Assembly: GCA_035506535.1 (NCBI GenBank)
Contig: DATJPE010000063.1
Span: 163,903 to 227,902 of the forward strand
Length of the DNA stretch: 64,000 bases
DNA from: Actinomycetes bacterium
GTDB taxonomy: Bacteria > Actinomycetota > Actinomycetes > DATJPE01
Direction of reading: 5' to 3'
Shown piece after piece: positions 34,684 through 64,000 of this stretch (position 1 is the first letter of the stretch; every line of letters begins with the position of its first letter). The notes under the pieces are model-generated. The model saw nothing but the letters and a program-made list of their open reading frames with translations. It did not search any database and was not told the DNA's origin. Position numbers and translations under genes: made by a program.

Positions 34684-35646
34684 GTGACACCCAGCCAGTT
34701 GCGCGCGTACTCGGCGGTCGCCAGGCACGGCTCGGTCAAGGAGGCTGCGGCCGAGCTCGGCGTGACCGAGGCAGCCGTCTCGCTGCACGTCGGCCAGCTG
34801 CGCCGCGAGTTCTCCGACCCACTGTTCGCGCGTACCGCGTCGGGACTCGCGTTCACGCCGGGTGGCCTGCGACTCGCGAGCCGCGCCGCGGAGATGCTCG
34901 GGCTGCAGGACCAGACGATCCGCGAGGTCAACCAGGCCGGCATGGGCCGGCGCCTGCTCCGGGTCGCAGCCACGAGCCTGTTCGCCGAGCACTCCGCTCC
35001 CGGACTCATCGAGCTGTTCGTCCGACGCGCTGCCGACATCGACGTGGAGCTCAGCGTGCGCAGCCCCACCTCCTTCGCCGCCCTGCTCGGCTCGCGCGCC
35101 GTCGACGTCGCGATCGGACCCGAGGTGGTCGGACCCGCGAGCGGGCTGGTGTCGAGGCCGTTCCTGCACTACCAGGTGGTCGCCGTCGTCGGTGCCGGGC
35201 ACCCGCTCGCGGGCGCGGGGGAGGAGGTTCCCTCGCCCGCGCTGCGCGACCAGGTGTGGCTGCTCGGCCCGTCCGCGGTCACCCCGGAGGGCGCCGTTCC
35301 CCGCCTGCTGCGCACGCTCAACGTGCCCGAGACGCGGCAGCGGATCTTCCAGAGCCACGCAGCGGCGCTCGAGGAGGCCAAACGCGGAACGGGGGTGGCG
35401 CTGGCTCTCTCCTTCGCGGTCTCGGGGGACGTCGCGAACGGGCGCCTCGTGCTCCTTCGCTGCCCGGAGCTGCCCGCCGAGGGCGTCTGGTCGACGACGA
35501 CGCTGCCCGACCACTCGGTCGTCCCCGCCGCTTCCGAGCTGACGAGGTTCGTCTCCACCCCACGGGCCATCCAGGCCATGCTCGCCGGGACCGGGGTCAA
35601 CGTCGGCCACTTCCGTCCGTCGATCCACGTCACGCTCTGGCAGTGA
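34684..35646 (+). CDS. LysR family transcriptional regulator
   Basis: GTG at 34684 with an AAGGGAG RBS. The wHTH is QLRAYSAVARHGSVKEAAAELGVTEAAVSLHVGQLRREF. Confidence 0.8.
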   Translation: MTPSQLRAYSAVARHGSVKEAAAELGVTEAAVSLHVGQLRREFSDPLFARTASGLAFTPGGLRLASRAAEMLGLQDQTIREVNQAGMGRRLLRVAATSLFAEHSAPGLIELFVRRAADIDVELSVRSPTSFAALLGSRAVDVAIGPEVVGPASGLVSRPFLHYQVVAVVGAGHPLAGAGEEVPSPALRDQVWLLGPSAVTPEGAVPRLLRTLNVPETRQRIFQSHAAALEEAKRGTGVALALSFAVSGDVANGRLVLLRCPELPAEGVWSTTTLPDHSVVPAASELTRFVSTPRAIQAMLAGTGVNVGHFRPSIHVTLWQ

Positions 35647-36853
35647 CCGACCCGGTTGGGGGCGCTCGCCCATCCGAGACGACCGCGATGGCGTCGACCA
35701 GGGCTCTCAGGGTGTGGGCAGGGAGCAACCGGTCGCAGTACGGCAGGGCCGCGGCCATCGCACCGACGCGAGGCTCGAAGCCCTCGGCACCGGCGCGGGG
35801 GTTCAGCCAGAACACGCGGTACGCCCTTCGTCGCAGCCGCGCCATCACCCGGTCCAGCTGCTCGGGCGGGTCGCTGTCCCACCCGTCGGAGGCGATCACG
35901 ACGACCGCTCCCCTGAGCAGGTCGCCGTGACGCGACCGCAGCAAGGTGGTCAGGTTGCTCGCGATGCGAGTGCCCCCGAACCGGTCGGTCACCACGGCGC
36001 CGGCTCTCTCGAGCGCCACGTCGACCGACCGGTGGGCCAGCACCGGGGTCAGCCGCGAGAGCTCGGTGGCAAAGGCGAACACCTCGGCGTCGCTCGCCTG
36101 GACGGCTGCTCGCATGAGGTGCAGGTAGGACGTCGCATAGGCCTCCATCGACCGGCTCACGTCGCAGACGAGCACGAGGCGCCGGGGTCGTCGACGGTGC
36201 GCCGAGCGCACCAGCACAGCCGGCTCCCACCCCGTCCGCCTGGCTCGCCCGAGCGTGCGGCGTAGGTCGACGTACGGTCCGCCGGTCCGTGGCTCGAGCC
36301 GACGGCTCCGCCTCGTCGGCCAGCGGGAGAAGGCTTGTTCCAGCCACTCGCCCAAGCGCGCCAGGTCGGCGGGGTCGAGGGCGTCGAAGGGTTGGTCGGC
36401 GATCGCCGAGAGCTCGCTGGGCAGCCGCTGCGGCAGCGCAACCCCCTCGTCCTCGGCCTCGACCGCCGTCTGGAGGGCCGGCAGCGTGGCCCACGGCAGG
36501 GCGCTGCCCTGCTCGGGGCCGCCGTCGGTCCCGCGCACCGGGGCGAGTCGTTCGTCGTCCGCCGCCGCGCTCGGCGCGCCACGGGCGCTCGACCCGGGCC
36601 GGCCGACGTCGAGCTCGACAGCCTCGAAGACCAGCCGATAGAGCTCGTCCCAGATCGGGATCTCGCAGGCCCGGTGCACCAGGCACAGCCGGCCGACCCA
36701 GTAGACGTCGAGCGGCTCCTCGAGAGGGGAGCGCTCCAGCGCCGCGGCGAACACCGCGGCGTCGCCCGTGGTCGCGCTCGCCCCGCGGCGGCGCAGGCGG
36801 TCGGTGAGCCCGATCGCGAACGAGGCCCGGTCGACGCCGGAGAGGACGCTCAC
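35630..36853 (-). CDS. coxE: VWA-domain protein, CoxE family (CO dehydrogenase accessory)
   Basis: A C-terminal VWA domain with a MIDAS motif (LVCDVSRSM) is present. The gene sits in the cox accessory position, and its GTG start overlaps the coxD stop (GTGA). Confidence 0.8.
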   Translation of the reverse strand: MSVLSGVDRASFAIGLTDRLRRRGASATTGDAAVFAAALERSPLEEPLDVYWVGRLCLVHRACEIPIWDELYRLVFEAVELDVGRPGSSARGAPSAAADDERLAPVRGTDGGPEQGSALPWATLPALQTAVEAEDEGVALPQRLPSELSAIADQPFDALDPADLARLGEWLEQAFSRWPTRRSRRLEPRTGGPYVDLRRTLGRARRTGWEPAVLVRSAHRRRPRRLVLVCDVSRSMEAYATSYLHLMRAAVQASDAEVFAFATELSRLTPVLAHRSVDVALERAGAVVTDRFGGTRIASNLTTLLRSRHGDLLRGAVVVIASDGWDSDPPEQLDRVMARLRRRAYRVFWLNPRAGAEGFEPRVGAMAAALPYCDRLLPAHTLRALVDAIAVVSDGRAPPTGSVTARA

Positions 36854-37747
36854 CGGCCCGCGTTCTCCTCAGCGTTGAGGTCGTCCAGCGCGGCCGTGAT
36901 CGCGGCTCGGTCGTCAGGGGTCTTGGCCAGCGTGCCCAGGGTGTCGACGACGTCCTCGCGCACGAGCTCGGAGACACCGAGTGCCGCCAGGGCCCCCAGC
37001 CAGTCGATGGTCTCTGCCATCCCCGGTGCCTTGTCGAGTTCCAGTGAGCGGACCCGCCCCACGAACTGCGCCGCGTCTCGGATCAGGGGTTCGGCGGCCC
37101 CGGGGACCGTGCGTCGGAGGATCTCCACCGCGCGTGCCGGTTCGGGGAACTCGATCCAGTGGTACAGACAGCGGCGGCGCAGCGCGTCGTGCAGCTCGCG
37201 GCTGCGGTTGGAGGTCAGGACGACGTACGGCGGGCGGGCGGCGGTGAACGTCCCCAGCTCCGGGACGGTCACCGCCGCCTCGCCGAGGAACTCGAACAGC
37301 AGGGCCTCGAACTCGTCGTCGGCCCGGTCGACCTCGTCGATCAGCAGGACCGGCGGCAGGGCGCCGGCGTCTCGGATGGCCTGCAGGATCGGCCGCTCCT
37401 GGAGGAACTCCTCGACGAACAGGTCCGAGCCGTGCGGAGTCTCCGCGCGTGCCTCGGCGATGCGGATGGCCAGCAGCTGACGCTGGTAGTTCCACTCGTA
37501 CAGCGCCTCGGCGACGGTGAGGCCCTCATAGCACTGCAACCGGATGAAGCGCGTGCCCAGGGCGCTGGCGAGCGCCTTGGCGGCGGCCGTCTTGCCGACG
37601 CCTGGCTCACCCTCGAGCAGCAGCGGCCTGCCCAGTCGCAGGGCGAGGAAGATCGCGGTCGCCAGGCCGCGGTCGACGAGGTAGTCGACCGCGTCGAGGC
37701 GGCGTTGGACGTCGGCCGCGTCGACGGGCAGGGGTGCGGTGGCGATG
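36850..37747 (-). CDS. coxD: MoxR-family AAA+ ATPase, CoxD-like (CO dehydrogenase accessory); start codon uncertain
   Basis: Walker A GEPGVGKT and Walker B LLIDEVDRA are present. The N-terminus PLPVDAADVQRRLDAVDYLVDRGLATAIFLALRLGRPLLLEG aligns with CoxD. No in-frame ATG/GTG/TTG exists near the expected start; I placed the 5' end at the ATC at 37747. Confidence 0.65.
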
Positions 37748-37759: not shown

Positions 37760-38344
37760 TCACTGGGTGGACAGCAGTCTCGCGTAGTCGTCCCACGTGT
37801 CCACGTCGAGGGGCACGGGGGAGTCCACGTCCTGCTCGACGACGCGGTGTCGACCGGACTCGAGCAGCCGCCACACGCCCTTGTCGCCATGCAGCTCGGC
37901 GAGGTCGCCGAAGACCTCACGGGCCAGCCACAGGGGGTGGCCGCGGCCGTCGACGTAGCGGCACACACCCATCGGCGCCGAGGCGGCGAACACACGCTCC
38001 AGCAGCTCGAGCACGACGGAGGCCCGCACCCCTGGCTGGTCCCCGAGCAGCAGCACGAGCCCGTCGGCCCGGTCGTCCACCACGGGCAGCGCCGCGCGCA
38101 CCGAGGACGCGCACCCGGTGCGGTGGTCGGGGTTGTCCACCACGACCAGGCCCGAGAGGTCGACGCCGCCCCGGACGAGCGGCGCGTCTCCGCCGAGCGC
38201 GACGACCAGCTGGTCGAACTCGCAGGCCCGAGCCGTGGCGAGAGTGGTCCCCAGCACGGTGCCCCCACGGTAGGGGAGCAGCTGCTTGGGGGCGCCGAGT
38301 CGGCTCGACGACCCGGCGGCGAGCACCAGCCCCGTGACGAACAC
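37760..38344 (-). CDS. MocA-like nucleotidyltransferase (molybdenum cofactor cytidylyltransferase family)
   Basis: GTG at 38344. GLVLAAGSSSRLGAPKQLL is the NTP_transf_3 signature, and the C-terminus DVDTWDDYARL matches MocA-type proteins. Confidence 0.75.
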   Translation of the reverse strand: MFVTGLVLAAGSSSRLGAPKQLLPYRGGTVLGTTLATARACEFDQLVVALGGDAPLVRGGVDLSGLVVVDNPDHRTGCASSVRAALPVVDDRADGLVLLLGDQPGVRASVVLELLERVFAASAPMGVCRYVDGRGHPLWLAREVFGDLAELHGDKGVWRLLESGRHRVVEQDVDSPVPLDVDTWDDYARLLSTQ

Positions 38345-38346: not shown

Positions 38347-39251
38347 TCAGGCCAGGCCGACCTGCGCGGCGTACCGGTCGCGGCAGGAGCGGCCGCAGAA
38401 CCAGTGCTCGACGCCGCCGACCACCAGGCTGGGGGTGTCCGGGCCGATGAGCACCGTCATGCCGCAGATCGGGTCCGTGGTGGTCGTCGGCACGGCCTGC
38501 TCGTGGCCGGTGGGCGTCACGCCTCCGGCCCGCCTGGCCTGGACGACGGCGGCGAGGATCGACAACGCGATCTCCGCTGGGGTCCGAGCCCCGATGGGCA
38601 CGCCCACGGGTGAGTGGACGAGCGCACGTTCCTCCTCGGCGAGGCCCATCGCGTCGAGGACCGCGCCGCCGCGCTTTCGGCTGGCGACCAGTCCCACGAA
38701 CCCGACGCCCGCATCGAGCGCCGCGCGGACGGCCATGGCCTCGTCGTGGCCGTGAGTGGAGATGACGACGGCCACAGTTCCGCCGCGTGGCGACGCTCCC
38801 GCCGCCGCTCTCGCCACGTCGAACCCCAGGACCTCCGCCAAGGCGACCACGGCCTGCGCGATGGGTGTGTCCCCGACCACCTGCAGCACGTCGGCGGGCG
38901 GCCTCGGTTCGAGGAAGATCTCCAAGGCGCCTCCCGACAGGCACGGGTTCACCACGACGTGCGCCCCCGGGGTCCGCGGGAAGGCGCCGAGGTCGTCGGG
39001 GAGGACCCGCAGGAGGACTGGCTCCCCCGACCTGAGCGAGTCGACCGCGGCGACCCGGACCGACTCCTCCGCGCACTCCCCGCCGACGAAGCCCTCGATG
39101 GTGCCGTCCGACAACACGATCGCCCGGTCACCGGCCCGGGTGGCCGTGGGCGCCTGTGCCCGGACGACGGTCGCGAGGACGTACGGCGTGCGGCTGCGGA
39201 CCAGCTCGCCGACCCGACGGGCCAGGCGTTCGTCGATCTGCTTCTCGAGGC

Positions 39252-39255
<4 letters not shown>
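38347..39255 (-). CDS. XdhC/CoxF/CoxI-family Mo-enzyme maturation factor fused to a C-terminal YHS (putative Cu-binding) domain
   Basis: The GTG at 39255 overlaps the coxL stop (GTGA). The XdhC N-domain (TPYVLATVVRAQAP...GFVGGECAE) and Rossmann part (TVAVVISTHGHDEAMAV) are followed by DPICGMTVLIGPDTPSLVVGGVEHWFCGRSCRDRY, which matches the YHS consensus DPVCGM.V...Y.FCS..C...F. Confidence 0.75.
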
Positions 39256-41638
<2,383 letters not shown>

Positions 41639-41642
<4 letters not shown>

Positions 41643-42130
41643 GACGCGCTCCCCACCTGCTCCGCGGCCATGGCTTCCTTGGCGGCGGCCCACCTGATCG
41701 AGCGGATGATCGTCGAGTATCCGGTGCACCGGCAGATCTGGCCGGAGATGGCCTCGCGGATCTCCTCCTCCGACGGGTCGGGGTTGCGGTCGAGCAGGGC
41801 GCGCGCGGTCATCATCATCCCCGGCGTACAGAACCCGCACTGCAGACCATGGCACTCCATGAAGCCTTGCTGCACGGCATCGAGGCCGGCTGCCGTCTCC
41901 AGCCCCTCGACCGTGCGCACCTCGTGGCCGCTGGCCATGGCAGCGAGGACGGTGCACGACTTCACCGGCTCGCGGTCCAGCCAGACCACGCACGTGCCGC
42001 AGTTGCTCGTGTCGCAGCCCCAGTGGGTCCCGGTGAGACCGAGATGGTCGCGCAGGAAGTGCACGAGGAGCAGCCGCCCCTCGATGTCGGCGGTGACCGG
42101 TTCGCCGTTGACCGTCATCGAGACCTGCAT
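41639..42130 (-). CDS. coxS: CO dehydrogenase small subunit (two [2Fe-2S] clusters)
   Basis: The translation carries a plant-type ferredoxin motif (CDTSNCGTC) and a second cluster motif (CGFCTPG...C.C). Confidence 0.9.
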
Positions 42131-42132: not shown

Positions 42133-43011
42133 TCAGACGTCCTCTCCGTTGATCCTGGCCACTGCCCGGCGCAGGGTGCGGCGGGTGAGCTCGTCGGCCA
42201 GGTGTCGCTTGTACTCCTCGCTGCCGCGCATGTCGGCCACCGGGCTGCAGCTTCGCGCCGCGATCGCGCCCGCCTGCTCGTACAGCTCCTCCGAGGGCTG
42301 CTGGCCCCGAAGCAGCTCGGAGATCCCCGGGATGGCCGTCGTGTTGGGCCCGACCGCCGCCAGCCCCACGCGTGCGTCGGTGATCTCGCCGCCGTCCATC
42401 CAGACGGCCGCGCCCGCGGACACCACCGCCCAGTCCCCGGCCCGGCGCTCGACCTTCTCGTAGGCGCTGGAACCGTTCGGCCGGATCGGGATGCGCACCT
42501 CGGTGAGGATCTCGTCGTCACCGACGGCGGTCTCGTACGGCCCGCGGTGGAAGTCCTCCATCGTCACGACCCGCACCCCGGAGCTGCCCACGATCACGCA
42601 GCTGGCGTCAAGGGTCGTGCACACGGCCGAAAGGTCCTCGGAGGGGTCGGCCTGGCACAACGAGCCGCCGATGGTGCCGCGGTTGCGGACCACGGGATCG
42701 GCGATCACCCGCTCCGCGTCGTGGAAGATCGGGAAGATACGGCCGAGCTCCGCCGACTCGAGCAGCTCGCGGTGCCGGGTCATCGCCCCGACCCTGACCT
42801 GGGTCGCCTCGACCGTGATCCCGCCGAGCTCGTCGTGCAGGTCGTTGATGTCGATCAGGTACTCGAAGTTGGCCAGCCTCAGCTTCATCATCGGCAAGAG
42901 GCTGTGGCCGCCGGCCACGAGACGGGCCGAGCTGCCGAGCCGTTCGAGGAGACCGATCGCCTCCTGGACACTGCTGGCTCGCTGGTACTCGAACGGCGCA
43001 GGCACCTGCAT
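42133..43011 (-). CDS. coxM: CO dehydrogenase medium subunit (FAD-binding)
   Basis: FAD-binding PCMH domain (RLVAGGHSLLPMMKLRL, RNRGTIGGSL); 292 aa. Confidence 0.9.
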   Translation of the reverse strand: MQVPAPFEYQRASSVQEAIGLLERLGSSARLVAGGHSLLPMMKLRLANFEYLIDINDLHDELGGITVEATQVRVGAMTRHRELLESAELGRIFPIFHDAERVIADPVVRNRGTIGGSLCQADPSEDLSAVCTTLDASCVIVGSSGVRVVTMEDFHRGPYETAVGDDEILTEVRIPIRPNGSSAYEKVERRAGDWAVVSAGAAVWMDGGEITDARVGLAAVGPNTTAIPGISELLRGQQPSEELYEQAGAIAARSCSPVADMRGSEEYKRHLADELTRRTLRRAVARINGEDV

Positions 43012-51901: not shown

Positions 51902-51915
51902 GCCGGGAACCAGCA

Positions 51916-54484: not shown

Positions 54485-54584
54485 CCGACCGCCTGCCGCC
54501 CCCACGACGGAGGCCGAGGTGAGACGACGAACGGAGCGAATCCCGCTGTCGTGAGCAGGCTCGGTCAGTCCCCCTCGACGAGCG

Positions 54585-54995: not shown

Positions 54996-55057
54996 GGTCA
55001 GATCCTCGCAGCCGGCCGCCCGCCCGACGGACCCAGGTCAGCCTCACCCGGGCGCCG

Positions 55058-55342: not shown

Positions 55343-55376
55343 CGTCTCTCCTCATCTTAGTTTGTCGCTAGAGTCC

Positions 55377-55412
55377 GTCACTAGTGGGTGACACGAGTAA
55401 TGTGACCGTCAC
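55377..55412 (+). promoter_or_regulatory. two palindromic operator-like sites, GTCACTAGTGGGTGAC (55377-55392) and GTGACCGTCAC (55402-55412), in the divergent region between the ABM-like gene and the TetR gene
   Basis: Read directly from the sequence. They share a GTGAC/GTCAC half-site and sit in a 71-bp intergenic gap overlapping the TetR 5' end. Confidence 0.45.
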
Positions 55413-55413
55413 T

Positions 55414-56070: not shown

Positions 56071-57076
56071 TCCGCGAGCCTGCCGCGCGCAGCCCGGCGG
56101 CCCACCCCGGGGCTCTGCCCAGGCCCGGCGGGTCGACCCCGCTCAGCTCGTGGCCGCTTCTGGCGAGGAGCCAGGACACGAGGCTGTTGGAGTTCCACAT
56201 CTCCCCGTAGCCACGTTCGTCGCGCCCCCACGTCAGGGTCGGGAACGAGGCGGCGAGGTCGAGCAGCGCGCGTACGCGCGATGAGTCCGTGGACAGCCGC
56301 ATCGGGGGACCGACACGCGCGTCGAGATCGGGGATGACCCCGTCGCGCCAGAGCCGAACCTCGTAGCGAAACCAGCGCGATCGCCCCCAGGACCTGAGCC
56401 CCACGGGCCCCGAGCAGACGACACCGCGGTCGCCACGGGGCCCTGACCAAGCGGGTGCCATCTCGACGGTGTACGGAACACCGTCCGCTGTCACCTCGAG
56501 CGCCGAATGGAAGAGCTGGCCGGGCCGGCGATGGTCGCGCCACGACTGGAGGAGCTCGAAGAGACGGCCACTCGCGCGGACCAGGCCGATCCGGTCGCCG
56601 GCCCCGAGCGGGATCCAGGACAGCGCGACCGACCAGCCGCGCGTGCAGAGCACGGCGACCACCTCGTCGGCTGCGCGCCCGACGGCGGCGGCCACGGCCT
56701 CGGACAGCTCGGACCCGACCGCGACGCTCGCCGCCTCGACGCCGACCACGGTGAGCCGAGCGGGCAGGCGGCCCAGGCCCCGGGCCAGCTCGATCGACTC
56801 GCGGACGCCGAACCCGTGGGTGCCTCCGGCACGGGGCGGGGACCGCTCGGCGGCCTGGTCCACGACGACAGATCCCGGCGGTCGGCCGGAGCGGATCGCG
56901 TCGACGACGACGACGTCGTCCCAGCCCTGCCAGGCGTCCACGAGCCGAGTGGGGACGGGGACGGCCATGAGCTCCAGGTCAGGCGTCGCGCGGCGGCGCA
57001 GCTCCTCGACCACCGCCAAGCCGACGCCGTCGTCCCCCCGGTACGGATTGCCGACTCCCACCACGAGCGCCCTCAC
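56015..57076 (-). CDS. hydrogenase maturation endopeptidase (HyaD/HybD family) carrying an additional ~190-aa C-terminal domain of unknown function
   Basis: The GTG at 57076 overlaps the large-subunit stop (GTGA). The translation is (M)[26 protein letters not shown]...DAIRSG, and the protease domain ends near residue 150. The frame continues uninterrupted to 56015. Confidence 0.65.
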
Positions 57077-58383
57077 GAGCGGTCCACCGTCACGTCGAGG
57101 AAGTGCGTCGCGCAGGAGATGCACGGGTCGTAGTTGCGGATCGCCTGCTCGCAGCGGCGGGTGAGCTCCTCGTCGTCGAGAGCGAGATTGGCCTGGGTGA
57201 AGCTCAGGAGGTCCGCCTCGATGCTCGCCTGGTTCTGCGACGTTGGCGGGACGATGCGGGCGTCGAGGATCGAGCCGTCGGCGTCGATCTCGTACCGGTG
57301 GAAGAGCACCCCGCGAGGCGCCTCTGTCGCGCCGTAGCCGACGCCGGCCCGCGGCGCCACCTCCACCGACGGTGCCGAGGCACCGGTCCAGCCGTCGATG
57401 ATGGCCAGCGCCTCCTCGCAGGCGTAGACGGTCTCCACTGCGCGCACGACGATGGAGCGGAACGGGTTGCGGCAGGGGGCGCCGAGCCCCGCCTCACTGG
57501 CTGCCTCCGCCGCACGTGGTGAGAGCCGGTCGGCGTTGAGCGCGTACCGCGCGAGGGGGCCCACGGCGTAACGTGCGCCGGACCCGGCGAGGTGCGAGTG
57601 CAGCGCGGTCGATCGTGCGACGTGCTCCTCGACGACGTGTCGGTCCAGCTCGGCGGCGTCGAAGGCCAACCCGCCCGTGGTCGTCACGCGACCACGCTCC
57701 AGCGGATAACCTTCGCCGGGCGCGCGCAGCGCGAGGTACTCGTGCGGCTGCTCGAAGACGGGGAACGCGAAAGTTCCCACGAGGCGGACTGTCTCCAGCG
57801 CGTCATCGAGCGCCTGTGCGAGCGCCGGACGGAGGTCGTCGAGCTCCTCACGGTGGGGCAGGCGATAGAAGCCGCCGACACGGACGTTCACCGGATGGAC
57901 GGAGCGACCGCCCACCAGGGTCATGAGCGCGTTGCCCGCCTTCTTCAGCCGCAACCCTCGCTCGACGACCTCGCGGTGGTCGCGCGCGAGGTCGATCGCG
58001 CTGTCGTAGCCGAGGAAGTCGGGGGCGTGCAGGAGATAGACGTGCAGCGAATGGCTCTCGATCCACTCGCCGCAGTAGAGCAACCGCCGCATGCGCCGGA
58101 TCTCGTCGGGAACCTCGACACCGCACGCCGCCTCGATGGCCTGGCAGGCACTCATCTGGTAGGCCACCGGGCAGATTCCGCAGATGCGCGCGGTGATGTC
58201 CGGCGCCTCCACGAACGAGCGTCCACGCAGCAGCGCCTCGAAGAACCTGGGCGGCTCGTAGATCCTCAGTTCGACCTCGGTGACCCGCCCGTCGACCACC
58301 CGGACGTGCATCGCCCCCTCGCCCTCGACGCGTGCCAGCGCGTCGACGCGCAGCAGGTGGTCACCGTCATGCGCGTGAGTCAT
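57073..58383 (-). CDS. [NiFe]-hydrogenase large (alpha) subunit, cytoplasmic group-3-like
   Basis: ATG at 58383 follows GGAGGAGG. The N-terminal motif is [10 protein letters not shown]. The C-terminal [18 protein letters not shown] has the DPCxxCxxH Ni-Fe site plus a short extension that the protease would remove. Confidence 0.9.
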
Positions 58384-59161
58384 GCGTGTCGGCCTCCTCC
58401 CGGAAGGCGGGCGCCTCGGCGGTGAACGTACGCAGGATCCGGACCACATCCGGCTCGCCCATCCCGTTCTCGAGCAGCCGCCCGACGAGCGACCCGACAT
58501 TGACGCCCGGGGCAGGCCCGAAGCACCCGTAGCAGCCTCGAGCGCAGGACGGGCACAACGCGCCGCAGCCGGACTGGGTCACCGGTCCGAGGCACGCCTG
58601 TCCGTGCGCGACGACGACGCAGACGTTGCCGCGACGCTTGCAGTCCGCGCAGACCGTCTCGGCCGGGATGCGCGGCGTACGTCCGTCCAGGTACGCCACG
58701 ACCACCTCGAGAAGCTGTCGCCGGTCGACCGGGCACCCGTGCAGCTCGAAGTCCACCGGCACGTGGGCGGAGATCGGCGTGGACCGGGCCAAGGTGTCGA
58801 TGTACTCGGGGCGGGCGTAGACGAGCGAGGTGAACTCGCCGACGTCGGCGAAGTTGCGTAGCGCCTGGATGCCCCCGCTGGTGGCGCAGGCGCCGATCGA
58901 GACGAGTCGGCGCGAGGCCCGTCGGATCTCCTGGACGCGTTCCAGGTCTGCGGGGGTCGTGATGGACCCTTCGACCAGCGACAGGTCGTAGGGTCCGTCG
59001 ACGTGGGCGCTGGAGGCCTCGGTGAAGTGTGCGATCTCGACGGCGTCGGCGAGCAGGAGCAGCTCGTCCTCGCAGTTCAGCAGGGTCAGCTGGCAGCCGT
59101 CGCAGGACGCGAACTTCCACACGGCCAGCCGTGGGCGAGCCGTCGCACCTCGAATCGTCAT
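58367..59161 (-). CDS. [NiFe]-hydrogenase small (delta) subunit, cytoplasmic type (no Tat signal)
   Basis: 264 aa. The proximal-cluster Cys motifs are FASCDGCQ and GACATSGG. There is no twin-arginine signal or C-terminal anchor. The ATG at 59161 overlaps the gamma stop (ATGA). Confidence 0.85.
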
Positions 59162-59967
59162 CACAGCCCCCGCATCGTCATGAGGGTGCGCGCGCGGTCG
59201 TAGCCGAGAACCGGGCCGTCGACGCACACGAACACCTCGCGAAGCTGGCAGTGACCGCAGAGCCCCACACCGCAGCGCATGTTGCGCTCCATGGACACCC
59301 GGATCTGCGACGGCACGACGCCCCGACGTACGAGCGCGTCTGCCGTGAGACGCATCATGACCTCCGGGCCGCACACGAGCACCAGAGTCGCGGCCGGGTC
59401 GAGGTCGGGCAGCACGTCGGTCACCAGGCCGACGTTGCCACGCCACGACGGCTCTCCGGCATCGACGGTCACCACGACGTCGAGATCGTCGCGAGCGGCC
59501 CACTCCTCCAGCTGAGGTCGGTAGAGCAGGTCGGTAGGTGTTCGGCTGCCGACGACGACGACGACACGACCGTAGCGCTCGCGGTGCCGCAGCACTGCGA
59601 GGACGACCGGGCGCACGGGGGCAAGGCCGATCCCGCCGGCCACCACGAGGACGTCTCCGTCGGTACCGCTCTCCTCCTCCCAGCCCCGACCGTACGGGCC
59701 CCGCGCGAAGACCGGATCGCCCACCGCGCAGCGCGTCAACGCGGCGGTCGCGTCCCCCACCGCCCGAACCGTGTGCATGAGACGCGCTGGCTCGTCAGGG
59801 TCGCCGCTGATGGAGATGGGTACCTCGCCGAAGCCCGGGCGGCCCACCATGGCGAACTGGCCCGGCCGGAACGCCATGGGGATGCCATCCACCGGTGCCA
59901 GCCCGAGCGTGACCGTGTCATGGGTCTCGGCTTGGACGTCCAGCACGGTGAACCGCCGCGGGAGCAT
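59161..59967 (-). CDS. hydrogenase gamma subunit: FNR-like FAD/NAD(P)-binding oxidoreductase with a C-terminal [2Fe-2S] motif
   Basis: ATG at 59967. The FAD-binding barrel ([22 protein letters not shown]) and NAD-binding domain ([11 protein letters not shown]) are followed by a C-terminal Cys cluster (CGVGLCGHC). Confidence 0.8.
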
Positions 59968-59995: not shown

Positions 59996-60463
59996 TCAGC
60001 GAGCACTCGGGGCCCCGTAGAGGTCGAGCAGGCGGACACGCGCCGACATCATCCGGTCGTGCATGGCACGCGCGAGTCTCTGCAGCATCAGGTACCCGAC
60101 CCGCGGGTCCTGGTCGCACTTCTCGCGCAGGCAGCCTGCGTCGAGAGCCACCGCGCTCGTGGACGACAGCGCCCGGGCGTCCATCGAGTGCCGGTACGGC
60201 GGGAACAGCCACGACAGGCCGACCACGCTGCCCGGGCCCTGCGTCTCCACGATGAGCCGCCGCTCGCCGGGTCCCTGGATCTCGATCGCGACCGAGCCAC
60301 CGCGCAGTAGGAAGAAGGTCTCGGCCGGGTCGTCCGCGCGGAACAGGTACTCGTCGGCGTCGAAGTGCCGGTTCAGCGCGCAGCCGGCGAGATGACGCAC
60401 GGTCTCCTCGTCGAGGTCCACGAAGAACGGGTGCCCCGCGATCAGCTGCTCGACGCTTCTCAT
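59996..60463 (-). CDS. cyclic-nucleotide-binding (Crp-type effector) domain protein without a DNA-binding domain
   Basis: 155 aa. The cNMP-binding beta-roll is [46 protein letters not shown]. It sits between the hydrogenase beta and gamma genes on the same strand. Confidence 0.7.
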
Positions 60464-60465
60464 GC

Positions 60466-61569
60466 TCAGCCGTCCTCTCCGCTCGCGCGGCGCAGCGCGG
60501 CGAGCTCCTGCGTGACGTCGATGCCGACCGGGCACCAGGTGACGCAGCGGCCACAGCCGACGCAGCCGCTGGTCCCGAACTGGTCCTGCCAGGAGGCGAA
60601 CTTGTGGGTCAGCCACTGGCGGTAACGCGACGCGGTCGATGCCCGCACCGGCTGACCGTGCATGAGCGAGTGCCCGCTGGTGAAGCACGAGTCCCACACA
60701 CGGTCCCTCGAGACGGACTCGGCCAGGCCCGTCGGTTCGACGGTCGTGACGCAGAAGCACGTCGGGCAGACCATCGTGCAGTTCCCGCAGGACAGGCACC
60801 GCGAGGCGACGTCGTCCCAGTGCGGGTCGTCGGCGCTCGCATAGATCAGGTCGCGGATGTCGGTCGTGTCGACGGCGCGCCCCATCGACGCAGCCGCCCG
60901 GGCCGCGACGGCCTCGGACGCGGCCAGGTCCTCCTCAGCCGCGATGCGGCTGGGGAGATCCGCCAGCAGCGAGGCGCCGGCATCGGTCCCCGCCTCGGCG
61001 ACGAAGCGATGCCCCTCGTCATCGAGGATCTCGGTCAGCGCGACGTCATACCCGCTGTCGGGCCGCGGGCCGGACCCCATCGACACGCAGAAGCAGGTTC
61101 CGCCGGGAACAGCGCACGTGACGGCGACGACGAACGTGCGGCTGCGGCGCTCGGCGTAGTCGGGATCGGCGTACTGCCGGCCGGTCAGGACGGTGTCGAG
61201 GACGGCGAGCGCCCGCAGGTCGCACGAGCGCACTCCGATGAGCGCGCGCGGGACCCGGTCCAGCGGCTCCGCGGTGGGTTCACCGTCGTCGGCCGCACGC
61301 CAGAGAGTCCGCTGCGATGGGAAGAGATAGGCCTTCCACGTGCTCACCGTCGCCGCCTGGTCGAAGAGGCGCGACTCCGCCGTCCGCTCGGCGCGGTAGC
61401 GCCCGGGGGACTGCTCGTCCCGGACCCCTCGCGGCAGGTCGTCGACGCCCGAGATCGGCGCCAGGACCACCACGCCGTCCCGAAGCGTCGGCCCGATCAG
61501 GGTGAAGCCGCGTCCGGCCAGAGTGTCCAAGAGCGCACCCAGTCCGGCGACGTCCACAACGGCGGCCAT
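60466..61569 (-). CDS. hydrogenase beta subunit: iron-sulfur (4Fe-4S dicluster) protein
   Basis: ATG at 61569 follows AGGAG. Ferredoxin-type motifs are [16 protein letters not shown] and [12 protein letters not shown]. Confidence 0.8.
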
Positions 61570-61684: not shown

Positions 61685-61715
61685 CCCCGGGGGGGTCAGA
61701 TCCCCCCGGGGCCCC
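61685..61715 (-). terminator. strong GC hairpin (CCGGGGGG-gtcagat-CCCCCCGG) downstream of dabA; intrinsic-terminator-like, without a U tract
   Basis: Perfect 8-bp GC stem with a 7-nt loop at 61687-61709. On the transcribed strand it lies 38-60 nt after the dabA stop, in the 177-bp gap before the hydrogenase operon. Confidence 0.35.
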
Positions 61716-61746: not shown

Positions 61747-64000
61747 TCAGAGGTCCTCCCGCGCGAGCGGCACGAGTGCTCGACGGGTCGGTGAGTGCTC
61801 CTCCCAGAGGCGCCAGTCGAGGCGACGGGTCAGCCGCCAGGCGCTGGCGTCGAACGGATCGATGGCCGCGACCGCGACCCAACCGTTGGCCACCAGGCGG
61901 GCCAGCAGGTCGTGGGAGCCGACGATCTCGCCGACCCGGCGAGGGGTGGCCCAGACGACGATCAGCTCACGCAGGGGCTCGTGCCGGCGCTCGCTCGTCG
62001 GGTGGCCCGGCGCGCCATCGAACAGCGCCTGCCACGGCAGGCCGAGCCGGAGATCACCATGAGCCCCGGTGAGCACGCCCACCTCCCCGACGACGTTGTG
62101 CGTCGACTTGTCCCCCGCGCCCAGGACGCCGGGGTCGACGGTCGACGCGTAGTACTGCGCGTTGATCCACTGGGTGACAACGGCCGGCGCCGTGAGGATC
62201 GAGGCGAGGATCGATCCGTCGGGGTCGAGCGCCGGGTCGTAGGAGTGCAGGAACACCCGGCCGTCCAGGTCGAGGCCCCGCGTGAGGGACCGCGGACCGA
62301 TGACGAAGGCTGCGTTGCCGGCCAGGCCCCACTCCGGCGCCGGCTCCGCCCAGTCGAGCGCCCGGGCGCGGACGTGCCTGGTGAGCGCGGCCGGCGCGGA
62401 TCCCGGGCGAGGCGCGCCGGGCAGGGACCCGGCACGCTCCGCACGCACGGCCCGCCCGGCGGCGCCGAGGGCCTCGCGCAGCGTCGCGACCCGTTCGGAG
62501 TACGCGGGAAACGGCGCGAACGCCGGGTCGAGCTCGACCTCGTCGGTCGTCGTGTCGTGGGCAGCCGCAACGGCCACGGTCGAGTCCGGCAGCCGGATGC
62601 CGTCGGCCGCAAGGGTCTCGCGCACCGTTGGGTCGTTGAGCACCTCGGCCAGGACTCGGGCGTTGACGTGACCACCGTTGCCGCCGCAGGCGCCGCAGTC
62701 GTAGGCGGTCGCAAAGGCGTTGTTCTCGACTGTGGCGGCATGCCCGCAGATCACCAGCAAGGGCGCGAAGTCCTCGACCAGACCGATGGTGCGCAGTGCT
62801 CCGGCGGCGAGCGCGACCCGTTGTCCATGGGTCATCCCGACCGGCAGCCCGGTATGCACCCGCCCGTGGCCGTCGGATCGTGTCGTGTCTGCAGGGATAC
62901 CCCAGCGGTCGGGCAGAGTCCACCGCTTCGACAGGCGATGCCACAGGCGTGGGGCCGCGGTCTGGACGACCGCCGCGACGCCGGCGAGCCAGCCGGTGGC
63001 CTCGGCGACGAGCAGCGGCGTCAGCGGTGCTGCTCCGATCCCCAGGGCGGCACCACGGACGGGCGGGCGGAGGCCGTCCGGCCGCGGTTGCGCGACGACG
63101 GCGAAGCTGGGCTCGAGGAGAGCCGGGCACTGGTCGAACTCGGCGCCATCGCCGGTGACATGGCGCAGCGCGGCGCCGAAGAACCCGGCGAAGCCGTACG
63201 TCGCGAACGGCCCCTGCGCCTCGAGAGCGCGACGTAAACGCTCCGAGCGGACGTCGATGCAGAAGACAGCCTGAGCCAGCGGGACAGGCCGCTTCTCCTC
63301 CAGTGAGCGACACGCAGATGCCAGTGTCTCACCACCAGCGCGAAGGTCGTCGAGAAGCGGTCGGCGGAAGCCCGCCTCGAGGGCTCGCTGCCAGGTCTCG
63401 CAGCGCGAGAGCTCCGCCGGATCCACCGGCTCGTCGTCGGCCCGGGCCCTCAGGGTGTTTGTCGCGTCGCCGACGAGGAGCAGCTCGAGTACGACCCGCA
63501 CAACAGCGAGCTCCAGCACTGGCGTCGGGTCAGCGAAGACGCGCGCGCGCCACTGGGCGTGAGCCGTCCAGCCCGGAAGGCCGCTCAGCAACCGGGTCAG
63601 GTACTCGACGATCATCGTTTCGTCGATGCCGGCGCGGCTGCACAGGAGGGCAAGCGCCTCGGCGGGATCCTCGGGGAGGCCCTCGATGAGGCGACTGGCC
63701 CCGCGCAGGCCCAGAGCCCCGTCGTACGCGCTGTGCACGCACGTCTGGCGGAGCCGCACCCACGGGCCCGAGCCGTTCGACGCGGTCCCCGACCACGCGC
63801 GCTGGCACCACCAGGCGGCGTGCTCGTCGGATGTCTCGGAGGAATCGGGTCGGCGCTTCGCGTCCGCGGGAGCGGGCTCGCGGGACGCGGCGCAGCGAGC
63901 GGTGCGGACGAGCGACTCGACCATGGCGTCGAGGTTGGCCCCTGGGGCCGGGATCCCTCGGTCCACGAACTGCTCGACCAGCGCCTCTCTCAGGTCGGCG
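61747..64000 (-). CDS. dabA: DabA (DUF2309/UPF0753), putative CA-like subunit of a DAB-type energy-coupled inorganic-carbon pump; 5' end lies outside the window
   Basis: The frame stays open to the window edge. The translation contains DabA-family metal-site motifs (VFCIDVRSE and ICGHAATVEN...YDCGACGG) and a C-terminal YYASTVDPG...GAGDKSTHNV region. Confidence 0.8.
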   Translation of the reverse strand, partial: ADLREALVEQFVDRGIPAPGANLDAMVESLVRTARCAASREPAPADAKRRPDSSETSDEHAAWWCQRAWSGTASNGSGPWVRLRQTCVHSAYDGALGLRGASRLIEGLPEDPAEALALLCSRAGIDETMIVEYLTRLLSGLPGWTAHAQWRARVFADPTPVLELAVVRVVLELLLVGDATNTLRARADDEPVDPAELSRCETWQRALEAGFRRPLLDDLRAGGETLASACRSLEEKRPVPLAQAVFCIDVRSERLRRALEAQGPFATYGFAGFFGAALRHVTGDGAEFDQCPALLEPSFAVVAQPRPDGLRPPVRGAALGIGAAPLTPLLVAEATGWLAGVAAVVQTAAPRLWHRLSKRWTLPDRWGIPADTTRSDGHGRVHTGLPVGMTHGQRVALAAGALRTIGLVEDFAPLLVICGHAATVENNAFATAYDCGACGGNGGHVNARVLAEVLNDPTVRETLAADGIRLPDSTVAVAAAHDTTTDEVELDPAFAPFPAYSERVATLREALGAAGRAVRAERAGSLPGAPRPGSAPAALTRHVRARALDWAEPAPEWGLAGNAAFVIGPRSLTRGLDLDGRVFLHSYDPALDPDGSILASILTAPAVVTQWINAQYYASTVDPGVLGAGDKSTHNVVGEVGVLTGAHGDLRLGLPWQALFDGAPGHPTSERRHEPLRELIVVWATPRRVGEIVGSHDLLARLVANGWVAVAAIDPFDASAWRLTRRLDWRLWEEHSPTRRALVPLAREDL

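What the first reader, a model, noticed from the sequence alone, without database searches (positions are those of the whole stretch)
35630..64000. Co-localised CO-oxidation, H2-oxidation, CO2-uptake and low-potential 2-oxoacid oxidoreductase genes form a possible trace-gas/lithotrophy island
Within 28 kb the window carries five systems. There is a form-I-like Mo-Cu CO dehydrogenase with its maturation genes and moaA. There is a ferredoxin-linked 2-oxoacid oxidoreductase with an NAD(P)H module. There is a cytoplasmic NAD(P)-coupled (group 3b-like) NiFe hydrogenase. There is a DabA inorganic-carbon pump subunit. This combination is what one expects of an actinobacterium that scavenges atmospheric CO/H2 and can handle CO2 and reducing equivalents at low potential. 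No RuBisCO or CODH/ACS gene is seen here, so a CO2-fixing role is only a hypothesis. If the OFOR ran in reverse it could be a carboxylation point.
Basis: partly seen in the sequence, partly recalled or inferred. Interest (0 to 1): 0.7.

Follow-up and report, generated by a model that had tools for sequence, protein, structure and literature searches.

The report
Four unrelated redox modules, not island
Only the carbon-monoxide dehydrogenase has anything to do with scavenging atmospheric trace gases.

Summary
Window 35.6-64 kb holds:
- a form-I Mo-Cu CO dehydrogenase cluster (coxMSL, XdhC-like, MocA-like, CoxD, CoxE). CoxL is 85.7% identical to the M. smegmatis atmospheric-CO enzyme;
- moaA;
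- a four-gene PFOR-type 2-oxoacid oxidoreductase whose delta subunit is fused to a GltD/NfnB-like NAD(P)H flavoprotein;
- a six-gene group 3b [NiFe]-hydrogenase operon;
- a DabA gene cut by the window edge.

On the source contig the DabA gene is a 1315-aa DabB-DabA fusion, so the dabB partner exists.

The "coordinated trace-gas/lithotrophy island" reading is not supported.
- GC and codon usage match the rest of the window, and there are no tRNA or mobility genes.
- 6.6 kb of unrelated genes splits the region.
- None of 80 OFOR loci carries cox or moaA.
- Only 1 of 80 dabBA loci carries any hydrogenase, and it is a non-orthologous Hox type.
- The four closest hyh operons have unrelated flanks.
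- In the studied actinobacterial model, group 3b hydrogenase is a hypoxia-induced, H2-evolving redox valve. Atmospheric H2 uptake is attributed to groups 1h and 2a.
- DABs are common in heterotrophs.
- No RuBisCO, reverse-TCA, hyp or coxG gene lies within the roughly 76 kb visible.

Verdict: ordinary new members of known systems, juxtaposed by chance. Low interest.

The parts
42133..43011 (-). coxM, the FAD-binding medium subunit of Mo-Cu CO dehydrogenase
   Evidence: PF00941 and PF03450. It is the first gene in the M-S-L order typical of form I.
41639..42130 (-). coxS, the [2Fe-2S] small subunit
   Evidence: PF01799 and PF00111.
39252..41642 (-). coxL, the form-I Mo-Cu CO dehydrogenase large subunit
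   Evidence: AYACSFR at residue 375. TIGR02416 equivalog at 1434 bits against a cut-off of 991. 85.7% identical to M. smegmatis CoxL (PDB 8UEM_A) over 791 residues.
38347..39255 (-). XdhC/CoxF/CoxI-like maturation factor
   Evidence: PF02625 and PF13478; XdhC_rel_AOR match below its cut-off.
37760..38344 (-). MocA-like molybdenum-cofactor cytidylyltransferase
   Evidence: PF12804. TIGR03310 at 123 bits, below its cut-off of 186.
36850..37746 (-). CoxD-like AAA+ (MoxR/MadB-type) ATPase, probably starting at a non-canonical ATC codon
   Evidence: AAA_5 and AAA; MadB_ATPase at 245 bits. There is no canonical in-frame start upstream of the Walker A motif. An ATC at 37746 has a GGGAGAG Shine-Dalgarno sequence 5 nt upstream.
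35630..36853 (-). coxE, a VWA-domain maturation protein
   Evidence: PF05762 VWA_CoxE at 203 bits.
43435..43791 (+). 118-aa CtaG-like membrane-protein fragment whose end overlaps the moaA start (ATGA)
   Evidence: Matches only positions 131-233 of the 237-position PF09678 profile. The upstream sequence in this frame is not protein-like. No NCBIfam hit.
43788..44801 (+). moaA, GTP 3',8-cyclase (first step of Mo-cofactor synthesis), divergent from cox
   Evidence: TIGR02666 at 381 bits against a cut-off of 284; Pfam.
44941..45519 (+). OFOR gamma subunit (PorC type). Start uncertain: 44839, 44905 or 44941
   Evidence: PF01558. TIGR02175 at 185 bits against a cut-off of 81. Candidate starts listed.
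45485..46762 (+). OFOR alpha subunit (PorA type)
   Evidence: PF01855 and PF17147. PorA_Arch at 427 bits. PDB 9BT4_B, a PFOR alpha subunit, at 345 bits.
46773..47777 (+). OFOR beta subunit (TPP-binding, PorB type)
   Evidence: PF02775. PorB at 323 bits.
47774..49402 (+). GltD/NfnB-like FAD/NAD(P)H flavoprotein fused to a PorD-type 2x[4Fe-4S] delta domain
   Evidence: PF14691, PF07992 and a C-terminal Fer4 dicluster. NF009410 at 733 bits against a cut-off of 516, and TIGR02179 PorD_KorD at 67.6 against 60 for residues 487-540. PDB relatives are NfnB- and GltD-type. The operon order g45-46-47-48 is conserved in every related locus with room to show it.
49421..56070 (.). Intervening block unrelated to gas metabolism: amidase, APH-family kinase, acyl-CoA dehydrogenase, TetR, SDR, two small hypotheticals, TetR
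   Evidence: Pfam.
56015..57076 (-). hycI-type hydrogenase maturation endopeptidase (residues 1-150) with an unusual 203-aa C-terminal extension
   Evidence: PF01750. TIGR00072 at 107 bits against a cut-off of 47. Relatives are about 150 aa. The extension belongs to a family with no Pfam model.
57073..58383 (-). hyhL, group 3b [NiFe]-hydrogenase large subunit
   Evidence: RICGIC and DPCISCATH motifs. Best NCBIfam matches are sulfhydrogenase alpha subunits ShyA (290 bits) and HydA (261 bits), against 154 and 149 for groups 3c and 3a. PDB 9NEZ_D at 248 bits over the full length.
58367..59161 (-). hyhS, hydrogenase small (delta) subunit
   Evidence: PF01058. ShyD and HydD are the best matches. 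The contig's own gene call is 264 aa.
59161..59967 (-). hyhG, FNR-like NAD(P)-binding [2Fe-2S] gamma subunit
   Evidence: PF00175 and PF10418. Matches AsrB, HydG and ShyC.
59996..60463 (-). 155-aa cNMP-binding-domain protein, a conserved member of actinobacterial hyh operons
   Evidence: PF00027. Found at the same position in all 4 closest operons.
60466..61569 (-). hyhB, AsrA-like Fe-S beta subunit
   Evidence: PF17179. Matches ShyB, HydB and AsrA. AGGAG lies 6 nt upstream of the ATG at 61569.
61685..61711 (-). GC-rich hairpin (stem of about 11 bp) just downstream of the dabBA stop codon. A possible terminator without a U-tract
   Evidence: Not statistically distinguishable from shuffled sequence at this GC content (z = -0.08).
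61747..64000 (-). C-terminal 750 aa (DabA part) of a fused DabB-DabA gene that continues to window coordinate 65694
   Evidence: PF10070 at 607 bits. Full ORF of 1315 aa with PF00361 and PF10070 on the source contig. Residues 500-1295 match DabA2 (9RD0_A, 316 bits) and residues 3-441 match DabB2 (9RD0_B, 110 bits). The zinc ligands C812, D814, H985 and C1000 are invariant.

Best explanation
The region is a juxtaposition of four separately conserved, separately inherited modules in the core chromosome of an uncultured soil actinomycete. Its closest named relatives are Jatrophihabitantaceae/Mycobacteriales.

1. Form-I Mo-Cu CO dehydrogenase (coxMSL) with its maturation genes (XdhC-like, MocA-like, CoxD, CoxE), and probably the divergent moaA. 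It oxidises CO to CO2, very likely with high affinity as in M. smegmatis. That CO is the substrate follows from orthology. The link to the respiratory chain is inferred, because no coxG is visible.

2. A PFOR-type oxidoreductase (gamma-alpha-beta) whose delta ferredoxin domain is fused to a GltD/NfnB-like flavoprotein. Electrons from oxidative decarboxylation of pyruvate, or a similar 2-oxoacid, would pass through the [4Fe-4S] chain to FAD and then to NAD(P)+. This mechanism is inferred from the domain architecture.

3. A cytosolic group 3b hydrogenase (HyhB, a cNMP-domain protein, HyhG, HyhS, HyhL, HycI) that interconverts NAD(P)H and H2. By analogy with M. smegmatis Hyh, it mainly disposes of excess reductant as H2 under hypoxia.

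4. A single-polypeptide DabB-DabA, with a divergent MarR-like regulator lying outside the window. It is a cation-gradient-driven vectorial CO2 hydratase that supplies bicarbonate. In a heterotroph, that bicarbonate would go to biotin-dependent carboxylases.

The modules are not co-transferred, not co-conserved and not contiguous. Their proximity is best read as coincidence of chromosome organisation.
For: Identities.

Each module is a conserved unit on its own.
- The OFOR operon order is kept in all 44 loci that include the gamma gene.
- The six-gene hyh core is kept in all 4 closest relatives.
- Fused dabBA is seen in more than 100 proteins, with a divergent wHTH regulator in 40 of 80 loci, including this contig.

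The modules do not travel together.
- None of 23 OFOR loci with at least 3 kb upstream has coxL, coxM or moaA. No OFOR locus has hyh downstream; 28 have at least 5 kb there.
- Only 1 of 80 dabBA loci has any hydrogenase and none has coxL.
- The flanks of the 4 closest hyh operons all differ and none contains DabA.

Divergence from the nearest database relative differs by module: OFOR 80%, HyhL 78%, DabBA 53%.

There is no island signature. GC is 0.69-0.73 throughout. Codon-usage correlation with the left half of the window is 0.98-0.997, against a same-genome control with mean 0.994. There are no tRNA genes.

6.6 kb of unrelated genes interrupts the region. A hairpin and a 177-bp gap separate dabBA from hyhB.

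Literature: group 3b Hyh is a fermentative H2 producer; atmospheric H2 uptake is by groups 1h and 2a; DABs occur in heterotrophs.
Against: Taken a priori, four redox or CO2-related modules within 30 kb is improbable.

One independent actinomycete locus, L017, also places a cytosolic NAD-linked hydrogenase (Hox type), fused dabBA, moaA and a PFOR within 20 kb. One metagenome locus, L121, has a HyhB-like gene divergent from the same OFOR operon.

dabBA and hyh are on the same strand only 177 bp apart, so read-through co-transcription is not excluded.

The synteny tests have limits. Flanks were 10 kb. Detection was by tblastn, which could miss very divergent hydrogenases. Apart from short 100%-identical contigs from other datasets, which add no neighbourhood information, the closest relatives available are 53-80% identical, so conservation within the immediate lineage is untested.
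Confidence: 0.75

Rival explanations
1. Hypoxia/fermentation neighbourhood. The NAD(P)-linked PFOR, the group 3b hydrogenase and DabBA work together when oxygen runs out. PFOR turns pyruvate into acetyl-CoA, CO2 and NAD(P)H. Hyh re-oxidises the NAD(P)H to H2. DabBA recaptures the CO2 as bicarbonate for anaplerotic carboxylation. The CODH cluster is merely adjacent.
For: PFOR and Hyh share the NAD(P)H currency. Hyh is a hypoxic H2-evolving redox valve in M. smegmatis. L017 repeats the theme with non-orthologous parts: HoxFUYH, dabBA, moaA and a NifJ-type PFOR. L121 has a HyhB-like gene divergent from the OFOR operon. dabBA lies directly upstream of hyhB on the same strand.
Against: Only 1 of 80 dabBA loci has a hydrogenase and 2 of 80 have a PFOR. 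About 0.6 hydrogenase hits are expected by chance. Only 1 of about 32 informative OFOR loci has a hyh gene. None of the 4 closest hyh operons has dabBA or an OFOR nearby. 6.6 kb of unrelated genes separates OFOR from hyh. A hairpin follows the dabBA stop codon.
Confidence: 0.14
2. One reading: a coordinated trace-gas/lithotrophy island in which CO and H2 are oxidised as energy sources, DabA imports inorganic carbon, and the OFOR runs in reverse as a carboxylase.
For: The form-I CODH is a close orthologue of the atmospheric-CO oxidiser. The hydrogenase is bidirectional in principle. DAB is part of CO2-concentrating mechanisms in chemoautotrophs.
Against: Group 3b is not the class linked to atmospheric H2 uptake. 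No RuBisCO/CBB, reverse-TCA, CODH/ACS or hyp gene lies within the roughly 76 kb visible. The OFOR is wired to NAD(P)H, at about -320 mV, which makes pyruvate synthesis at about -500 mV unfavourable without bifurcation (inference). The neighbourhood is not conserved. There is no island signature.
Confidence: 0.06
3. A horizontally acquired genomic island carrying the four modules as one mobile unit.
For: None specific. The region is dense in accessory metabolism.
Against: GC is flat. Codon usage cannot be distinguished from the rest of the window. There are no tRNA genes. No integrase or transposase appears in the Pfam annotations from -0.2 to 75.7 kb. The modules show different degrees of divergence from their nearest relatives.
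Confidence: 0.03

Closest known systems
Mycobacterium smegmatis Mo-Cu CO dehydrogenase CoxSML (PDB 8UEM; Nat Chem Biol 2025, PMC12202499; ISME J 2019, PMC6794299)
   Same: CoxL is 85.7% identical over 791 residues with an identical active-site loop. Gene order is coxM-S-L. AAA+ CoxD, VWA CoxE and XdhC-type maturation genes are present.
   Different: There is no coxG (the SRPBCC menaquinone shuttle) in the cluster or within the roughly 76 kb visible. In the published survey coxG lay inside the cluster in 24 of 30 genomes and elsewhere in the genome in 4 of 30. The CoxD-like gene appears to use an ATC start codon.
Group 3b [NiFe]-hydrogenase: Pyrococcus/Thermococcus sulfhydrogenase I/II (PDB 9NEZ, 5YXY) and M. 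smegmatis Hyh
   Same: Four-subunit beta-gamma-delta-alpha architecture with an AsrA-like Fe-S subunit and an FNR-like NAD(P) subunit. The Ni-binding motifs are present. The large subunit aligns over its full length with sulfhydrogenase alpha at 248 bits. A dedicated endopeptidase is present.
   Different: All subunits score below NCBIfam's archaeal equivalog cut-offs, so this is the actinobacterial subclade. An extra cNMP-domain gene sits between hyhB and hyhG, and it is conserved in actinobacterial relatives. HycI carries a 203-aa extension unique to this contig. No hyp genes are nearby.
DAB2 (DabA2/DabB2) of Halothiobacillus neapolitanus (PDB 9RD0; bioRxiv 10.1101/476713 and 10.64898/2026.03.13.711513); MpsAB of Staphylococcus aureus
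   Same: Both components are present. The beta-carbonic-anhydrase-like zinc ligands are conserved: C351, D353, H524 and C539 of DabA2 correspond to C812, D814, H985 and C1000 here. The N-terminal half matches DabB2 better than it matches NuoL.
   Different: The two components form one polypeptide in the order DabB then DabA. This architecture is common in Actinomycetes. It was already noted for Acidimicrobium ferrooxidans, and an engineered fusion in this order is functional. Here it sits in a probable heterotroph with no carboxysome or RuBisCO genes in view, and it pairs with a divergent MarR-like regulator.
Four-subunit archaeal-type pyruvate:ferredoxin oxidoreductase (PorABCD; PDB 9BT4) and NAD-linked OFORs such as phenylglyoxylate:NAD+ oxidoreductase PadEFGHI of Azoarcus evansii (enzymology recalled from memory; NCBIfam models NF045762/64/66)
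   Same: The alpha, beta and gamma subunits match PorA, PorB and PorC best. A PorD-type dicluster domain is present. As in PadEFGHI, an additional flavoprotein module should allow direct reduction of pyridine nucleotide. The Pad models are hit at 132-240 bits, below their cut-offs.
   Different: The delta domain is fused to the C-terminus of a GltD/NfnB-like protein (NCBIfam subfamily PRK12771). I found no biochemical characterisation of this fused type in the searchable literature. The substrate and the physiological direction are untested.

Membership tests
Form I aerobic Mo-Cu CO dehydrogenase | Active-site loop AYxCSFR in CoxL (form II has AYRGAGR) | tested here: met
   AYACSFR at residue 375. 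The loop is identical to that of M. smegmatis CoxL.
Form I aerobic Mo-Cu CO dehydrogenase | Gene order coxM-coxS-coxL | tested here: met
   42133-43011, 41639-42130 and 39252-41642, all on the minus strand.
Form I aerobic Mo-Cu CO dehydrogenase | Scores above the curated equivalog cut-off for the CO dehydrogenase large subunit | tested here: met
   TIGR02416 at 1434 bits against a cut-off of 991. The next family, glyceraldehyde dehydrogenase alpha, scores 615.
Form I aerobic Mo-Cu CO dehydrogenase | CoxD (AAA+), CoxE (VWA) and CoxF (XdhC-like) maturation genes | tested here: met
Form I aerobic Mo-Cu CO dehydrogenase | CoxG quinone-shuttle partner in the cluster | tested here: not met
   No SRPBCC/CoxG family appears among any annotated gene from -0.2 to 75.7 kb. 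It may lie elsewhere in the genome, as in 4 of 30 surveyed genomes.
Form I aerobic Mo-Cu CO dehydrogenase | CO-oxidising activity at atmospheric concentrations | not testable with these tools
   Inferred from 85.7% identity to the characterised enzyme.
Group 3b [NiFe]-hydrogenase | Large subunit with the N-terminal RxCGxC and C-terminal DPCxxCxxH Ni-Fe ligand motifs | tested here: met
   RICGIC and DPCISCATH.
Group 3b [NiFe]-hydrogenase | Closer to characterised group 3b enzymes than to groups 3a, 3c, 3d, 1 or 2 | tested here: met
   PDB scores: group 3b 248 bits over the full length, 3c 174, 3d 152, 3a 149, groups 1 and 2 at or below 72 over the N-terminus only. NCBIfam gives the same order.
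Group 3b [NiFe]-hydrogenase | HyhBGSL architecture: AsrA-like Fe-S beta subunit and FNR-like NAD(P)-binding gamma subunit | tested here: met
   PF17179; PF00175 with PF10418; matches to ShyB/HydB and ShyC/HydG.
Group 3b [NiFe]-hydrogenase | Placement in a curated hydrogenase phylogeny (HydDB) | not tested
   No such classifier was available.
DAB (DabA/DabB) vectorial CO2 hydratase | PF10070 DabA protein | tested here: met
   607 bits. 316 bits against DabA2, 9RD0_A.
DAB (DabA/DabB) vectorial CO2 hydratase | PF00361 DabB partner encoded with it | tested here: met
   Fused at the N-terminus (residues 3-441). 110 bits against DabB2, compared with 90 against NuoL.
DAB (DabA/DabB) vectorial CO2 hydratase | Beta-carbonic-anhydrase-like zinc ligands (Cys, Asp, His, Cys) | tested here: met
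   C812, D814, H985 and C1000 align with C351, D353, H524 and C539 of DabA2 and are invariant in 22 fusion proteins.
DAB (DabA/DabB) vectorial CO2 hydratase | Energy-coupled inorganic-carbon uptake activity | not testable with these tools
   An engineered DabB2-DabA2 fusion is active, which shows only that the architecture is compatible with function.
2-oxoacid:ferredoxin oxidoreductase (PFOR/VOR four-subunit type) | Alpha (POR_N + PFOR_II), beta (TPP_enzyme_C), gamma (POR) and delta (2x[4Fe-4S]) components | tested here: met
   The delta component is present as a fused domain (TIGR02179 at 67.6 against a cut-off of 60).
2-oxoacid:ferredoxin oxidoreductase (PFOR/VOR four-subunit type) | Substrate (pyruvate or another 2-oxoacid) and electron acceptor | not testable with these tools
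   The best matches are Por subunits, all below their equivalog cut-offs. NAD(P)+ as acceptor is inferred from the fused GltD-like module.
Genomic island / co-inherited functional gene cluster | Atypical base composition or codon usage | tested here: not met
Genomic island / co-inherited functional gene cluster | Boundary or mobility elements (tRNA, integrase, transposase, flanking repeats) | tested here: not met
   No tRNA genes. No mobility Pfam families.
Genomic island / co-inherited functional gene cluster | Neighbourhood conserved in related genomes | tested here: not met

The most novel reading that the evidence does not exclude
In some Actinomycetes a cytosolic NAD(P)-linked bidirectional hydrogenase, a pyruvate-oxidising OFOR and a fused DabB-DabA form a loosely clustered module for hypoxic H2 fermentation with CO2 recapture. 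The OFOR makes NAD(P)H and CO2. The hydrogenase vents the reductant as H2. DabBA traps the CO2 as bicarbonate for anaplerotic carboxylation. The module would have been assembled convergently from non-orthologous parts: Hyh with a four-subunit OFOR here, and Hox with a NifJ-type PFOR in the Dermatophilaceae locus L017.
Probability: 0.1. Interest if true: 0.5.

Novelty: new member of a known kind. Interest (0 to 1): 0.2.

Why it matters
If the island reading had held, it would have pointed to a packaged trace-gas lithotrophy kit in soil Actinomycetes. It does not hold.

What remains is useful mainly as a correction: a group 3b hydrogenase or a DAB gene next to a CODH should not be read as evidence of H2 scavenging or autotrophy.

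Three by-products may interest specialists:
- The NAD(P)-linked PFOR with a GltD-fused delta subunit is extremely widespread and highly conserved in aerobic soil Actinomycetes, yet I could find no biochemical study of it.
- Fused DabB-DabA with a divergent MarR-like regulator is the standard actinobacterial form of DAB.
- This high-affinity-type CODH cluster lacks the CoxG quinone shuttle that is essential in M. smegmatis.

Tried and rejected
1. Sigma-70 promoter and intrinsic-terminator scan of 54.4-62.2 kb found nothing. This is uninformative at 72% GC.

2. Folding the dabBA-hyhB gap gave z = -0.08 against shuffles, so the hairpins are only suggestive.

3. A CoxG/SRPBCC search among all unannotated small ORFs at E <= 0.5 found nothing.

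4. The CtaG-like ORF at 43435-43791 has no credible N-terminal half in its frame, and the alternative ORF 43137-43625 has no family hit. I treat it as a fragment.

5. HycI extension:
- There is no tblastn hit in any of 170 fetched loci, no Pfam hit and no second contig carrying the fusion.
- Other long members of its family are not HycI fusions.
- Foldseek against the PDB found nothing, and the afdb50 library was unavailable.
I reject the idea that the extension family is linked to hydrogenases.

6. Literature searches for a described GltD-fused OFOR delta subunit, and for PadH, found nothing relevant.

7. I considered whether the DabB-DabA fusion was a gene-calling artefact and rejected it. 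It is one uninterrupted ORF, and more than 100 homologues have the same architecture.

8. I considered whether the fusion is novel and rejected that too. It was already noted in 2018.

Full report
**Source and gene map.** The window is 72% GC, so raw ORF lists are dominated by spurious frames. I called genes by codon-position GC and annotated them with Pfam and NCBIfam. The window is the reverse complement of part of a 285-kb metagenome contig, ENA ERZ27256505 k141_2735718. That let me read 11.7 kb past the right edge and obtain precomputed Pfam annotation for the left half.

**What is there.**

(i) *cox cluster, minus strand, 35630-43011.* The gene order is coxM, coxS, coxL, an XdhC/CoxF-like gene, a MocA-like cytidylyltransferase, a CoxD-like AAA+ ATPase and the VWA protein CoxE.
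- CoxL has the form-I loop AYACSFR.
- It passes NCBIfam's form-I equivalog at 1434 bits against a cut-off of 991.
- It is 85.7% identical over 791 ungapped residues to the M. smegmatis enzyme whose cryo-EM structure (8UEM) explains atmospheric CO oxidation.

(ii) *Divergent plus-strand genes.* These are a 118-aa CtaG-like fragment, moaA (above its equivalog cut-off) and a four-gene OFOR.
- The gamma, alpha and beta subunits match PorC, PorA and PorB best.
- The fourth gene is a 542-aa GltD/NfnB-like flavoprotein. Its last ~55 residues are a PorD-type 2x[4Fe-4S] domain (NF009410 at 733 bits against 516; TIGR02179 at 67.6 against 60).

(iii) *49421-56070.* This stretch holds an amidase, an APH kinase, an acyl-CoA dehydrogenase, two TetR regulators, an SDR and two small hypotheticals. 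None relates to gas metabolism.

(iv) *hyh operon, minus strand, 56015-61569.* The genes are HyhB, a 155-aa cNMP-domain protein, HyhG, HyhS, HyhL and HycI.
- HyhL has the RICGIC and DPCISCATH motifs.
- It aligns over its full length with solved group 3b sulfhydrogenase alpha subunits at 248 bits. It scores 174 against group 3c, 152 against 3d and 149 against 3a. Respiratory group 1 and 2 enzymes match only the N-terminal motif, at 72 bits or less.
- NCBIfam ranks all four subunits the same way.

(v) *61747-64000, minus strand.* This is the DabA part of a gene that continues to coordinate 65694 as one uninterrupted 1315-aa ORF.
- Residues 3-441 match DabB2 and residues 500-1295 match DabA2 of the solved DAB2 complex.
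- The four zinc-site residues shown by mutagenesis to be essential in DabA2 (C351, D353, H524, C539) align with C812, D814, H985 and C1000. All four are invariant in 22 fusion homologues.

**Is it an island?** It is not, by composition or by mobility.
- GC is 0.69-0.73 across the whole window.
- Relative codon usage of each module correlates with the left half of the window at r = 0.98-0.997. Random same-genome gene sets give a mean of 0.994 and a minimum of 0.983.
- There are no tRNA genes, and no integrase or transposase family appears in any annotation.

**Is the neighbourhood conserved?** I tested it from three anchors.

(a) *dabBA.*
- More than 100 homologues of 1250-1450 aa carry both PF00361 and PF10070. 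The named ones are mostly Actinomycetes, and the best is only 53% identical.
- I fetched 80 species-representative genome loci with 10-kb flanks.
- tblastn with all window proteins, then again with added Hox and NifJ queries, found a hydrogenase in one locus (L017), a PFOR in two and CoxL in none.
- The real conserved neighbours are a divergent MarR-like winged-helix regulator in 40 of 80 loci, which is also present on this contig just outside the window, and a PII-like gene downstream in 10 loci.

(b) *OFOR.*
- The GltD-delta protein has thousands of homologues at 65-80% identity. The closest named ones are Jatrophihabitantaceae.
- In 80 metagenome loci the gamma-alpha-beta-(GltD-delta) order is invariant.
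- None of the 23 loci with at least 3 kb upstream carries coxL, coxM or moaA. None of the 28 with at least 5 kb downstream carries hyh. One locus, L121, has a HyhB-like gene divergently upstream.

(c) *hyh.*
- HyhL has thousands of homologues at 70-78% identity.
- The four closest on long contigs keep the six-gene core exactly, but their flanks are entirely different. The neighbours are a SulP transporter, a hybrid-cluster protein, a succinate-dehydrogenase-like gene and a 2-oxoacid dehydrogenase E2. None has DabA, an OFOR or cox.

Each module is therefore a tight, independently conserved unit, and the combination is idiosyncratic to this contig.

**Function.**
- *Hydrogenase.* In M. smegmatis the group 3b enzyme Hyh disposes of excess reductant as H2 during hypoxia under DosR control. 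Atmospheric H2 oxidation is attributed to groups 1h and 2a. The hydrogenase here therefore gives no support to H2 scavenging.
- *DAB.* DAB systems are widespread in heterotrophs, where they are proposed to supply bicarbonate to carboxylases. No RuBisCO/CBB, reverse-TCA or CODH/ACS gene lies between -0.2 and 75.7 kb.
- *OFOR.* Its internal electron path would run TPP, beta-subunit cluster, delta diclusters, GltD-type clusters, FAD, NAD(P)+. This is downhill for oxidative decarboxylation and uphill by roughly 180 mV for pyruvate synthesis from NAD(P)H. The carboxylation idea is therefore unfavoured unless the NfnB-like flavin bifurcates. This is inference from domain architecture, not a demonstrated mechanism.
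- *CODH.* It is the one component that fits the trace-gas theme. A caveat is that coxG is absent from the cluster and from the roughly 76 kb visible. CoxG is the menaquinone shuttle essential for CO oxidation in M. smegmatis. In the published survey it lay inside 24 of 30 clusters and elsewhere in the genome in 4 of 30.

**What keeps a small door open.** L017, a Dermatophilaceae MAG, has HypF, HoxFUYH plus a protease, fused dabBA, moaA and a NifJ-type PFOR within 20 kb. That is the same functional themes built from non-orthologous parts. With roughly two hydrogenase operons per 5-Mb genome and 20-kb windows, about 0.6 such hits are expected among 80 loci, so one hit is what chance gives. dabBA and hyhB are on the same strand 177 bp apart. 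A GC-rich hairpin with a stem of about 11 bp follows the dabBA stop codon, and hyhB has its own AGGAG Shine-Dalgarno sequence. Neither feature proves separate transcription.

**Novelty.** Every module is a new, in places divergent, member of a known kind.
- The DabB-DabA fusion was noted for Acidimicrobium ferrooxidans in the original DAB paper. An engineered fusion in the same order is functional and was used for the cryo-EM structure.
- The GltD-fused OFOR is catalogued as NCBIfam PRK12771, but I found no characterisation of it. It is the most under-studied item here.

**Verdict.** Interest is low (0.2).

Noticed in passing
window 36850-37746 (-): The CoxD-like AAA+ gene has no in-frame ATG, GTG or TTG upstream of its Walker A motif. 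An in-frame ATC at 37746 sits 5 nt after a GGGAGAG Shine-Dalgarno sequence and would give a 298-aa protein. The contig's own gene call (229 aa from a TTG at 37539) is truncated and has no Pfam hit. This is either a non-canonical start codon or a base error.
   Followed up: partly
[not shown]
   Followed up: yes
window 35630-43011 and the visible contig from -0.2 to 75.7 kb: [quoted passage not shown]
   Followed up: partly
L171:9579-9893 (window coordinates about 65802-66116, outside the window); L003-L082: Fused dabBA has a conserved divergent MarR-like winged-helix regulator in 40 of 80 loci, up to 76% identical to the one on this contig. In 10 loci, mostly Mycobacteriales, a small PII-like ORF lies immediately downstream, reminiscent of SbtB next to SbtA. 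This contig has no such ORF.
   Followed up: partly
L017:904-20492: A Dermatophilaceae MAG locus carries HypF, HoxFUYH with a protease, fused dabBA, moaA and a NifJ-type PFOR. It is a second juxtaposition of hydrogenase, DAB, moaA and PFOR, built from non-orthologous hydrogenase and PFOR genes.
   Followed up: partly
window 59996-60463 (-); L167-L170: A 155-aa protein consisting only of a cNMP-binding domain (no HTH) sits between hyhB and hyhG in this operon and in all four closest actinobacterial group 3b operons. Its role, as a regulatory subunit or otherwise, is unknown to me.
   Followed up: partly
window 43435-43791 (+): A 118-aa ORF matches only the C-terminal half of the Caa3_CtaG family (a copper-insertion factor type). 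Its stop overlaps the moaA start (ATGA). There is no credible N-terminal half in the same frame. It is possibly a gene remnant. Its position next to a Mo-Cu enzyme cluster is curious.
   Followed up: partly
window 44839-49402 (+); L087-L166: The gamma-alpha-beta-(GltD+delta) OFOR operon is extremely common and 65-80% conserved across soil Actinomycetes. One protein hit is named as Limnocylindrales (Chloroflexota). I could find no biochemical characterisation of it.
   Followed up: partly
L121:1-7493: A metagenome contig has a HyhB-like gene (48% identity) divergent from the same OFOR operon and a CoxS-like [2Fe-2S] gene (48%) immediately downstream of it.
   Followed up: no
window 15339-22951 (-): The left half of the window carries an aromatic meta-cleavage-type set (two glyoxalase/extradiol-dioxygenase-fold genes, an aldehyde dehydrogenase, an FAA-hydrolase-family gene, an alpha/beta hydrolase and a LysR regulator) next to an ABC sugar-type transporter. 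This is ordinary catabolism, unrelated to the finding.
   Followed up: no
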